Positions 11,933 to 11,997 of a DNA stretch of 64,000 bases are shown piece by piece (position 1 is the first letter of the stretch; each line of letters begins with the position of its first letter). The notes under the pieces are model-generated. The model was not told where the DNA came from. It saw only the letters and a program-made list of their open reading frames with translations, and did not search any database. This stretch comes from an uncultured Candidatus Saccharibacteria bacterium (lineage in GTDB: Bacteria > Patescibacteriota > Minisyncoccia > Phycocordibacterales > CAIZLB01). The position numbers were made by a program, and so were the translations under genes. The stretch spans positions 34,421 to 98,420 of the forward strand of contig CAZFNX010000001.1 of assembly GCA_964520195.1 (NCBI GenBank), given 5' to 3'.

Positions 11933-11969
11933 AAAGTGGTATAAAATGGTACTAAGTGGGAGAAAGTGG
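11933..11969 (+). promoter_or_regulatory. MraZ operator: four direct-repeat boxes AAAGTGG / AAAATGG / TAAGTGG / AAAGTGG with exact 10-bp phasing
   Basis: Boxes start at 11933, 11943, 11953 and 11963, directly upstream of mraZ. This matches the AAAGTG[GT]-type MraZ box arrays described in Firmicutes/Mollicutes and the 10-bp-spaced repeat logic of E. coli. Confidence 0.65.
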
Positions 11970-11997
11970 TAAATCCCACGAAAGTACGAAAATATAT

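What the first reader, a model, noticed from the sequence alone, without database searches (positions are those of the whole stretch)
11933..11997. Canonical MraZ operator: four AAAGTGG-type boxes phased exactly 10 bp apart immediately upstream of mraZ
Boxes AAAGTGG (11933), AAAATGG (11943), TAAGTGG (11953) and AAAGTGG (11963) are equally spaced at 10 bp and end 29 bp before the mraZ ATG. MraZ proteins bind arrays of direct repeats with one-helical-turn spacing (TGGGN x3 in E. coli; AAAGTG[GT] series in Mollicutes/Firmicutes). The six-frame ORF for mraZ (from 11956) overlaps the boxes, so the annotated start should be the MFIGEF Met at 11998. This gives a well-defined autoregulatory site for the split dcw cluster.
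Basis: partly seen in the sequence, partly recalled or inferred. Interest (0 to 1): 0.5.

Follow-up and report, generated by a model that had tools for sequence, protein, structure and literature searches.

The report
MraZ operator inside mraZ promoter
The four phased repeats are almost certainly the binding site through which the cell-division regulator MraZ shuts off its own operon in an uncultured Patescibacteria genome; this is a correct but ordinary example of a well-known system, with the twist that the second "box" is also the promoter's -10 element.

Summary
AAAGTGG (11933), AAAATGG (11943), TAAGTGG (11953) and AAAGTGG (11963) lie exactly 10 bp apart. The array is unique in the window and absent from 100 shuffles. 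It ends 28 nt before the ATG (11998) of a bona fide mraZ (TIGR00242 above cut-off). The genome belongs to Patescibacteria (Paceibacteria).

GTGG-N6-GTG(G/T) pairs occur upstream of mraZ in 77 of 78 related species, about 190 times more densely than elsewhere in the same loci. A reverse search with the box 3-box 4 motif in metagenomes lands in front of mraZ in 82 of 106 assessable hits.

The array overlaps the predicted promoter, TTGCAA-16-TAAAAT. Box 1 lies in the spacer, box 2 coincides with the -10 hexamer, and boxes 3 and 4 cover the predicted start site. Boxes 1, 3 and 4 are conserved family-wide. Box 2 is box-like (TGG) only in the subclade with exact 20-bp spacing between boxes 1 and 3; most relatives have 21 bp there.

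The most likely mechanism is autorepression by promoter occlusion, as in M. genitalium, E. coli and B. subtilis. This is a new member of a known kind, of low to moderate interest.

Side finding: most relatives, but not this window, carry a perfect DnaA-box 9-mer next to this promoter.

The parts
11837..11878 (+). Intrinsic-terminator-like hairpin followed by a U-rich tract. It closes the upstream unit (ORF 11231-11722) and isolates the mraZ promoter.
   Evidence: 18-pair stem. (dG -21.8 kcal/mol, z = -6.1, 0 of 200 shuffles fold as well).
11920..11925 (+). Predicted -35 hexamer TTGCAA.
   Evidence: TTGCAA-16-TAAAAT, 9 of 12 matches. TTGCAAA is invariant in five close relatives. A TTGc-like consensus sits at the same place in 78 relatives.
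11933..11939 (+). MraZ box 1, AAAGTGG, in the promoter spacer and abutting the -10 element (predicted -21 to -15).
   Evidence: GTGG at this position in about 60-66 of 78 relatives. Invariant in close relatives.
11942..11947 (+). Predicted -10 hexamer TAAAAT, part of the invariant TATAAAAT.
   Evidence: Consensus TATAtAAT in relatives. Invariant in close relatives.
11943..11949 (+). Box 2, AAAATGG: a degenerate box that coincides with the -10 hexamer. It keeps the T-G-G trinucleotide but has A in place of the first G.
   Evidence: In the 22 sequences with 20-bp spacing between boxes 1 and 3 the slot reads A-T-G(21/22)-G(16/22). In the 56 sequences with 21-bp spacing it is not box-like. In M. 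genitalium the base contacts are to T-G-(T/G).
11953..11959 (+). MraZ box 3, TAAGTGG (GTGGGA core), covering the predicted transcription start (about 11954).
   Evidence: The un-anchored flanking columns are conserved: G at +4 in 72 of 78 and A at +5 in 76 of 78. The start site is inferred from the -10 position, not mapped.
11963..11969 (+). MraZ box 4, AAAGTGG (predicted +10 to +16).
   Evidence: A at -1 in 74 of 78 relatives, and TA follows the box. Invariant in close relatives.
11974..11979 (+). TCCCAC, complementary to box 3 (GTGGGA). It could form a 6-bp hairpin at the 5' end of the mRNA. Its membership in the system is uncertain.
   Evidence: dG -9.2 kcal/mol, z = -2.05, 11 of 200 shuffles as good. 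A CCAC or CCCAC follows box 4 in all five close relatives and in L008, but not in the wider family.
11998..12456 (+). mraZ (152 aa). The true start is the ATG at 11998, not the GTG at 11956.
12471..13418 (+). rsmH (mraW), 16S rRNA m4C1402 methyltransferase, second gene of the operon.
   Evidence: TIGR00006, 266 bits.
13442..13753 (+). Small ORF (103 aa) in the position of ftsL. It matches no family.
   Evidence: An ORF of 104-107 aa sits at the same place in the close relatives. The FtsL identity is inferred from position only.
13767..15584 (+). Class B penicillin-binding protein (FtsI/SpoVD-like transpeptidase), the last dcw gene of this half-cluster.

Best explanation
The 37-bp array at 11933-11969 is the operator of the MraZ protein encoded immediately downstream, and it is built into the sigma-70-type promoter of the mraZ-rsmH-ftsL-ftsI operon. 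Each MraZ subunit is expected to insert its 'cradle' motif (K13, R15, R86) into one major groove at a T-G-(G/T) core. Neighbouring subunits of an opened MraZ ring would then occupy successive cores one helical turn apart. Here the cores span about -21 to +16 relative to the predicted start site. Box 1 lies in the spacer next to the -10, box 2 is the -10 hexamer itself (TAAAATGG), and boxes 3 and 4 cover the start site. A bound MraZ oligomer should therefore exclude RNA polymerase, so that MraZ represses its own operon. What is shown: the array, its uniqueness, its conservation with mraZ, the promoter-like context, and the conserved DNA-contact residues. What is inferred: actual binding, the start site, the direction of regulation, and whether a subunit makes specific contacts at box 2.
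For: The array is unique in the window and is not produced by shuffling. The gene downstream is mraZ with D11, K13, R15, D82 and R86 intact. In 77 of 78 assessable Paceibacteria species a GTGG-N6-GTG(G/T) pair lies within 500 nt upstream of mraZ. That is 143 hits in 38.8 kb upstream, against 17 in 889 kb of flanking sequence and 3 on the opposite strand of the upstream regions. Columns not used for anchoring are also conserved: GTGGGA, an A-rich 5' flank, box 1, box 0 and TATAAT. In five close relatives (86-95% MraZ identity) the block AGTGGTATAAAATGGTA..AAGTGGGA.AAAGTGGT is invariant while the adjacent spacer and 5' UTR diverge. In the reverse direction, AAGTGGGANAAAGTGGTA searched in metagenomes is followed by mraZ on the same strand in 82 of 106 assessable hits, with MraZ identity to the window down to 22%. 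The promoter TTGCAA-16-TAAAAT was predicted and lies just after a strong terminator. Published precedent: the M. genitalium operator AAAGTGT-N3 x4 with cryoEM, EMSA and reporter assays (PMC12957436); B. subtilis GTGG[A/T]G x3, required for repression (bioRxiv 10.1101/2022.02.09.479790); B. cenocepacia four 7-nt repeats with 3-nt spacers overlapping the start site, 'as in E. coli' (PMC7761207).
Against: There is no experimental binding or start-site data for this organism. The promoter scan found no more sites than in shuffled sequence (5 found against 5.2 expected), so the promoter call rests on conservation. Box 2 lacks the first G, and its conservation is confounded with that of the -10 element. 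In the 56 relatives with 21-bp spacing the slot is not box-like. MraZ has been reported to act as an activator when overexpressed in M. gallisepticum (cited in PMC12957436).
Confidence: 0.82

Rival explanations
1. A three-box operator plus a promoter. MraZ recognises only boxes 1, 3 and 4 (or only the 3-4 pair). 'Box 2' is simply the -10 hexamer followed by a G-rich discriminator, so its resemblance to a box is a by-product of TATAAT ending in T and being followed by GG.
For: In 56 of 78 relatives boxes 1 and 3 are 21 bp apart and the slot between them is not box-like: position +12 is A26/G19/T11. The T of the slot is the invariant last T of the -10. The first G of the core is A in the window. 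In M. genitalium MraZ still binds at high concentration when a longer spacer is placed in the middle of the array.
Against: In the 22 sequences with exact 20-bp spacing, the slot has G at +12 in 21 and G at +13 in 16. The base-specific contacts in the cryoEM structure are to T-G-(T/G), all of which box 2 retains. Most of these 22 sequences belong to one clade, however, so the correlation is weak evidence.
Confidence: 0.4
2. The array is an MraZ site, but MraZ activates rather than represses the operon here.
For: Activation on overexpression was reported for M. gallisepticum (cited in PMC12957436).
Against: The boxes overlap the predicted -10 and the start site. That geometry fits occlusion, not recruitment. 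Repression has been demonstrated in E. coli, B. subtilis and M. genitalium.
Confidence: 0.08
3. The repeats are not a protein operator. They could be a chance or compositional feature, phased A-tracts that curve the promoter DNA, or the site of some other factor.
For: The A-tracts are in helical phase. The single hexamer AAGTGG is not enriched in the window.
Against: None of 100 shuffles gives the array. The G-T-G-G cores, not just the A-tracts, are what is conserved across 78 species. The motif predicts mraZ in unrelated metagenomic contigs.
Confidence: 0.03

Closest known systems
Mycoplasma genitalium MraZ four-box operator (AAAGTGT-N3-AAAGTGT-N3-AAAGTGT-N3-AAAGTGG; cryoEM 9QLR and related entries; PMC12957436)
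   Same: Both have four 7-nt boxes with 3-nt spacers, giving a 10-bp period. Both have an A-rich 5' flank and a TG(G/T) core. In both the array lies directly upstream of mraZ, and one box covers the start site (mapped in M. genitalium, predicted here). K13, R15 and R86 are conserved in the window's MraZ.
   Different: In M. genitalium the mapped start site is inside box 1, so the whole array lies downstream of the -10. Here the array straddles the -10: box 1 is upstream of it, box 2 is the -10 itself, and the predicted start site falls in box 3. The cores are GTGG rather than GTGT, and box 2 is ATGG. The proteins are distant (phmmer E = 2e-14).
E. coli Pmra MraZ boxes (three TGGGN direct repeats; Eraso et al. 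2014) and the Burkholderia cenocepacia PmraBc four-repeat site (PMC7761207)
   Same: Both are direct repeats at one-helical-turn spacing at the promoter of the first dcw gene. They overlap the start site, and MraZ autoregulates through them.
   Different: Those arrays are contiguous and lie downstream of the -10. The operons they control run through to ftsZ, whereas here the operon holds only mraZ-rsmH-ftsL-ftsI. The Eraso paper itself could not be read, so the details of the E. coli site rest on citing papers and on my own knowledge.
Bacillus subtilis MraZ binding repeats (three GTGG[A/T]G motifs, 4-nt spacers; bioRxiv 10.1101/2022.02.09.479790)
   Same: The core is GTGG with a 10-bp period. 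The triple repeat is unique in the genome, and the repeats are required for repression of Pmra.
   Different: There are three boxes rather than four, the flank is G[A/T]G rather than an A-rich 5' flank, and the position relative to the -10 was not stated in the text I could read.

Membership tests
MraZ operator (MraZ boxes / MBRs at Pmra) | Three or more direct repeats with a GTG(G/T) core. | tested here: met
   Boxes 1, 3 and 4 have GTGG. Box 2 has ATGG and so keeps TGG.
MraZ operator (MraZ boxes / MBRs at Pmra) | Cores separated by six nucleotides (10-bp period), all on the same strand. | tested here: met
   The box starts are at 11933, 11943, 11953 and 11963. TRF reports a 20-bp period.
MraZ operator (MraZ boxes / MBRs at Pmra) | Located in the promoter region immediately upstream of mraZ, the first gene of a dcw cluster. 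| tested here: met
   The array ends 28 nt upstream of mraZ, which is followed by rsmH, an ftsL-like ORF and ftsI.
MraZ operator (MraZ boxes / MBRs at Pmra) | Conserved upstream of the mraZ orthologues. | tested here: met
   Found in 77 of 78 species, about 190-fold enriched, and invariant in close relatives. The reverse scan gave 82 of 106 hits in front of mraZ.
MraZ operator (MraZ boxes / MBRs at Pmra) | A cognate MraZ with two DXXXR motifs and the DNA-contact residues K13, R15 and R86. | tested here: met
   D11, K13, R15, D82 and R86 are invariant in the 32-sequence alignment and align with M. genitalium MraZ.
MraZ operator (MraZ boxes / MBRs at Pmra) | Overlap with the -10 element or the transcription start site. 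| tested here: inconclusive
   The predicted TTGCAA-16-TAAAAT promoter places the boxes at -21 to +16 and the promoter elements are conserved. The start site has not been mapped.
MraZ operator (MraZ boxes / MBRs at Pmra) | Specific binding by MraZ, and MraZ-dependent repression. | not testable with these tools
   This needs EMSA, footprinting and a reporter assay.
DnaA-box-associated promoter (considered because of the relatives) | TTATCCACA or its complement, with at most one mismatch, next to the promoter. | tested here: not met
   There is no copy with at most one mismatch in window 11700-11998 or in the close relatives L081-L085. It is present in 76 of 77 more distant Paceibacteria loci.

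The most novel reading that the evidence does not exclude
In this Paceibacteria subclade the -10 hexamer may double as a real MraZ box (TAAAATGG keeps the contacted T-G-G). MraZ and sigma would then compete for the very same bases. The exact four-box register would have evolved from the family's split 2+2 operator (10-21-10) by loss of one base pair. In most other Paceibacteria the same promoter carries a perfect DnaA box just upstream of the -35, which suggests a direct DnaA/MraZ node coupling replication to division in these regulator-poor cells. That input has been lost in the window's lineage.
Probability: 0.3. Interest if true: 0.5.

Novelty: new member of a known kind. Interest (0 to 1): 0.3.

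Why it matters
The finding gives a confident regulatory annotation (operator, promoter, correct mraZ start codon, operon extent) for an uncultured Patescibacteria genome, a group with very few recognisable transcription factors. It shows that the MraZ-operator logic solved structurally in Mycoplasma extends to this phylum with nearly the same 7+3 box grammar. It also defines a family-wide promoter architecture that could be tested with heterologous MraZ and reporter assays. It does not change what is known about how MraZ works.

Tried and rejected
- I searched the window for further MraZ targets. GTGG-N6-GTGK occurs only once, at the finding itself. There are no AAGTGG copies near ftsA-ftsZ. 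No wider regulon is therefore visible in these 64 kb.
- An Rfam scan of 10700-12200 found only tRNA-Val and sub-threshold noise, so there is no known RNA element in the leader.
- The 5' UTR hairpin (box 3 pairing with TCCCAC) is only marginally better than shuffles (z = -2.05) and is limited to the closest clade. I did not adopt it as part of the mechanism.
- The upstream CCCAC (11928-11932), which with the downstream copy makes a 9-bp direct repeat AAATCCCAC flanking the array, is not conserved even in 95%-identical relatives. I treat it as chance.
- I considered reading box 1 as an extended -10 (TGn) motif. In the register with the better hexamer (TAAAAT or TATAAT) the TG falls at -17/-16 rather than -15/-14. 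The whole GTGG is conserved, not just TG.
- I looked for the DnaA-box motif seen in relatives. It is absent from the window and from its closest relatives.
- The primary E. coli paper (PMC4010979) is not held in the library.
- A search for papers on MraZ in Patescibacteria found nothing relevant.
- The scan between ftsI and pyk found no terminator or promoter, so the 3' end of the operon is undefined.

Full report
**Observation**

- A degenerate four-box pattern (WAARTGG-N3 x4, up to two mismatches) matches only here in 64 kb and in none of 100 dinucleotide-preserving shuffles.
- Tandem Repeats Finder independently reports a 20-bp period over 11934-11971.
- The single hexamer AAGTGG is not enriched in the window.
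- The two-box core GTGG-N6-GTGK occurs once, against 1.6 expected.

The phasing of four units and the comparative evidence make the feature significant, not word frequency. Twenty-eight nucleotides separate box 4 from the ATG at 11998.

**Context**

- The ORF from 11998 is MraZ: Pfam PF02381 at 2.5e-29 and the TIGR00242 equivalog at 119 bits against a cut-off of 98.
- It is followed at short distances by rsmH, a 103-aa ORF in the ftsL position, and a class B PBP. Pyruvate kinase comes next, with no recognisable terminator in between.
- A strong hairpin with a U-rich tail at 11837-11878 (dG -21.8 kcal/mol, z = -6.1) separates the promoter from the upstream gene.
- ftsA and ftsZ lie at 52026-54650 on the other strand, behind ybeY, and have no boxes. 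The dcw cluster is indeed split, and this site can only act in cis on the mraZ-ftsI half.
- The closest homologues and loci are MAGs of Patescibacteria, class Paceibacteria / Parcubacteria. The window has 36% G+C.

**Start codon**

- M1 is invariant in 32 aligned homologues.
- The Pfam profile and the alignments to the M. pneumoniae and M. genitalium structures begin at residue 1.
- The distance from box 3 to the ATG varies from 17 to 246 nt among relatives.
- The GTG at 11956 lies inside box 3 and is not the start.
- Several database homologues are called with N-terminal extensions of this kind (163-178 aa).

**Conservation**

I collected 80 loci from one-per-species genomes with an MraZ profile (53-77% identity).
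- Of the 78 loci with enough upstream DNA, 77 have at least one GTGG-N6-GTG(G/T) pair within 500 nt upstream of mraZ on the coding strand.
- The density is 3.7 per kb there, against 0.019 per kb per strand in the remaining 889 kb. Only 3 hits lie on the opposite strand of the upstream regions.
- When the loci are anchored on the promoter-proximal pair, the columns not used for anchoring are also conserved. These include G and A after box 3 (72 and 76 of 78), A before box 4 (74 of 78), a TATAtAAT element, a further GTGG directly before it (box 1), and in most species another GTGGG 10 bp further upstream (box 0).
- Five closer relatives (86-95% MraZ identity) keep AGTGGTATAAAATGGTA..AAGTGGGA.AAAGTGGT invariant, while the promoter spacer and the 5' UTR around it have diverged, including indels.

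**Reverse test**

I searched the box 3-box 4 consensus AAGTGGGANAAAGTGGTA (17 specified bases) in metagenome contigs and obtained 120 stretches.
- Of 106 hits with at least 350 nt downstream, 78 are followed by mraZ on the same strand by tblastn, and 4 more by a profile search.
- These come from very diverse lineages, with MraZ identity to the window from 22% to 70%.
- At least seven of the remaining hits lie inside long ORFs and look like chance.
- The motif therefore predicts the gene, as well as the gene predicting the motif.

**Anatomy relative to the promoter**

The consensus scan gives TTGCAA (11920) - 16 nt - TAAAAT (11942). Both hexamers are invariant in the close relatives and correspond to the family consensus. 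Taking +1 at about 11954:
- box 1 spans -21 to -15;
- box 2 spans -11 to -5 and coincides with the -10;
- box 3 spans -1 to +6;
- box 4 spans +10 to +16.

In the wider family boxes 1 and 3 are 21 bp apart in 56 sequences and 20 bp apart in 22, the window's group included. In the 21-bp group the slot between them is not box-like. In the 20-bp group it reads A-T-G(21/22)-G(16/22). The 'four boxes exactly 10 bp apart' arrangement is thus a subclade state of a family-wide split operator (box 0-box 1, then the -10, then box 3-box 4).

Whether box 2 is really contacted is open. In the M. genitalium cryoEM structure the base-specific contacts of K13, R15 and R86 are to T-G-(T/G), and the first G is touched in only some boxes (PMC12957436). 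Box 2 keeps T-G-G, which favours a real, weaker box. However, its T is the invariant last base of the -10, and most members of the 20-bp group are one clade. I rate this about even.

**Mechanism**

The window's MraZ has D11, K13, R15, D82 and R86 at the positions that contact DNA in M. genitalium. The M. genitalium operator has the same grammar (7-nt A-rich box, 3-nt spacer, four copies). It binds four adjacent subunits of an opened MraZ ring, and repression falls stepwise as boxes are removed. B. subtilis needs its three GTGG[A/T]G repeats for repression. B. cenocepacia has four 7+3 repeats that overlap the start site, 'as in E. coli'.

By analogy, and given that the array here covers the -10 and the start site, the best-supported reading is negative autoregulation by promoter occlusion. 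Binding, the start site and the sign of regulation are inferred, not shown.

**Differences from the characterised cases**

In M. genitalium the mapped start site lies inside box 1. In B. cenocepacia and E. coli the repeats lie downstream of the -10. Many metagenomic hits from other phyla likewise show TTGACA...TATAAT followed by three contiguous boxes. In Paceibacteria the boxes flank the -10 on both sides. This is a variation in layout, not a new kind of system.

**Novelty and interest**

I found no paper describing MraZ boxes in Patescibacteria. The inference is a direct extension of published work, so I class it as a new member of a known kind, with interest about 0.3.

**Side finding**

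- 39 of 77 related loci carry a perfect TGTGGATAA, the complement of the DnaA box TTATCCACA. Counting copies with at most one mismatch, 54 loci have it, and 41 of those copies start 52-53 bp upstream of box 3, just upstream of the -35.
- 24 loci have a copy in the opposite orientation, and only one locus of the 77 has no copy in either orientation.
- Only 4 perfect copies occur in the other 914 kb of the same loci.
- The motif is absent from the window and from its closest relatives. Those instead share a different conserved block upstream of the -35.
- I found no literature on this. It may merit its own study.

Noticed in passing
L001-L080, about 52-53 bp upstream of box 3 (for example L045, L062, L040). 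Not in the window.: A perfect DnaA-box 9-mer (TGTGGATAA, the complement of TTATCCACA) sits just upstream of the -35 of the mraZ promoter in 39 of 77 Paceibacteria species, and in 54 of 77 with at most one mismatch. 24 loci have a copy in the opposite orientation at about -47 to -76. Only 4 perfect copies occur in the other 914 kb of these loci. This suggests DnaA input into dcw transcription. It is absent from window 11700-11998 and from L081-L085.
   Followed up: partly
L170, L183, L192 (metagenome hits), upstream of the mraZ boxes: An inverted pair of DnaA-box-like motifs, TTATCCAC-N2-3-GTGGATAA (for example ttatccacacttGTGGATAAc in L192), lies upstream of the mraZ promoter.
   Followed up: no
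window 11896-11927: The block ACACAAAAC-N-GTAATGTCCATTTGCAAA, upstream of and including the -35, is nearly invariant in the window and five close relatives, although the neighbouring intergenic DNA has diverged. It occupies the place where other Paceibacteria have the DnaA-box motif. It may be an UP-like element or a site for another factor.
   Followed up: no
window 11956-11979: Box 3 (GTGGGA) is complementary to TCCCAC at 11974-11979, giving a possible 6-bp hairpin at the 5' end of the mRNA (dG -9.2 kcal/mol, z = -2.05). Close relatives keep a CCAC or CCCAC after box 4 that can pair with box 3 or box 4, for example AGTGGTAAACCACT in L084. It is not seen in the wider family.
   Followed up: partly
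L001-L010 and L081-L083, 10 bp upstream of box 1: These relatives have AAATGT (a TGT core) exactly 10 bp upstream of box 1, which would be a degenerate fifth in-phase box. The window has ATCC there, and L084 and L085 also lack it.
   Followed up: partly
window 52026-55096 (- strand): ybeY, ftsA and ftsZ form a separate cluster about 40 kb from mraZ on the opposite strand, with no MraZ boxes upstream. The dcw genes are split, and ftsZ is not under cis control of this operator.
   Followed up: yes
P0004, P0005, P0006, P0014, P0042, P0044 and others: Many database MraZ homologues of this clade are called 10-26 residues too long (163-178 aa against 152). The likely cause is in-frame GTG or TTG codons within the operator boxes, as with the GTG at 11956 in the window.
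   Followed up: partly
L092, L144, L146, L165 (near-identical); L125, L140, L164, L088, L204; L101, L111: Some metagenomic matches to the two-box motif lie in non-coding DNA, several with a third in-phase GTGG, but no mraZ was detected within 1.2-1.5 kb downstream. L101 and L111 show TTGACA...TATAC promoters and may be followed directly by an rsmH-like gene. These could be MraZ targets without an adjacent mraZ.
   Followed up: no
window 15585-15683: No terminator-like or promoter-like site lies between the PBP gene and pyruvate kinase. All following genes are on the same strand, so the operon may read through into non-dcw genes.
   Followed up: no
window 10945-11018: tRNA-Val (GAC) lies upstream of the 163-aa ORF that precedes the mraZ promoter.
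   Followed up: yes
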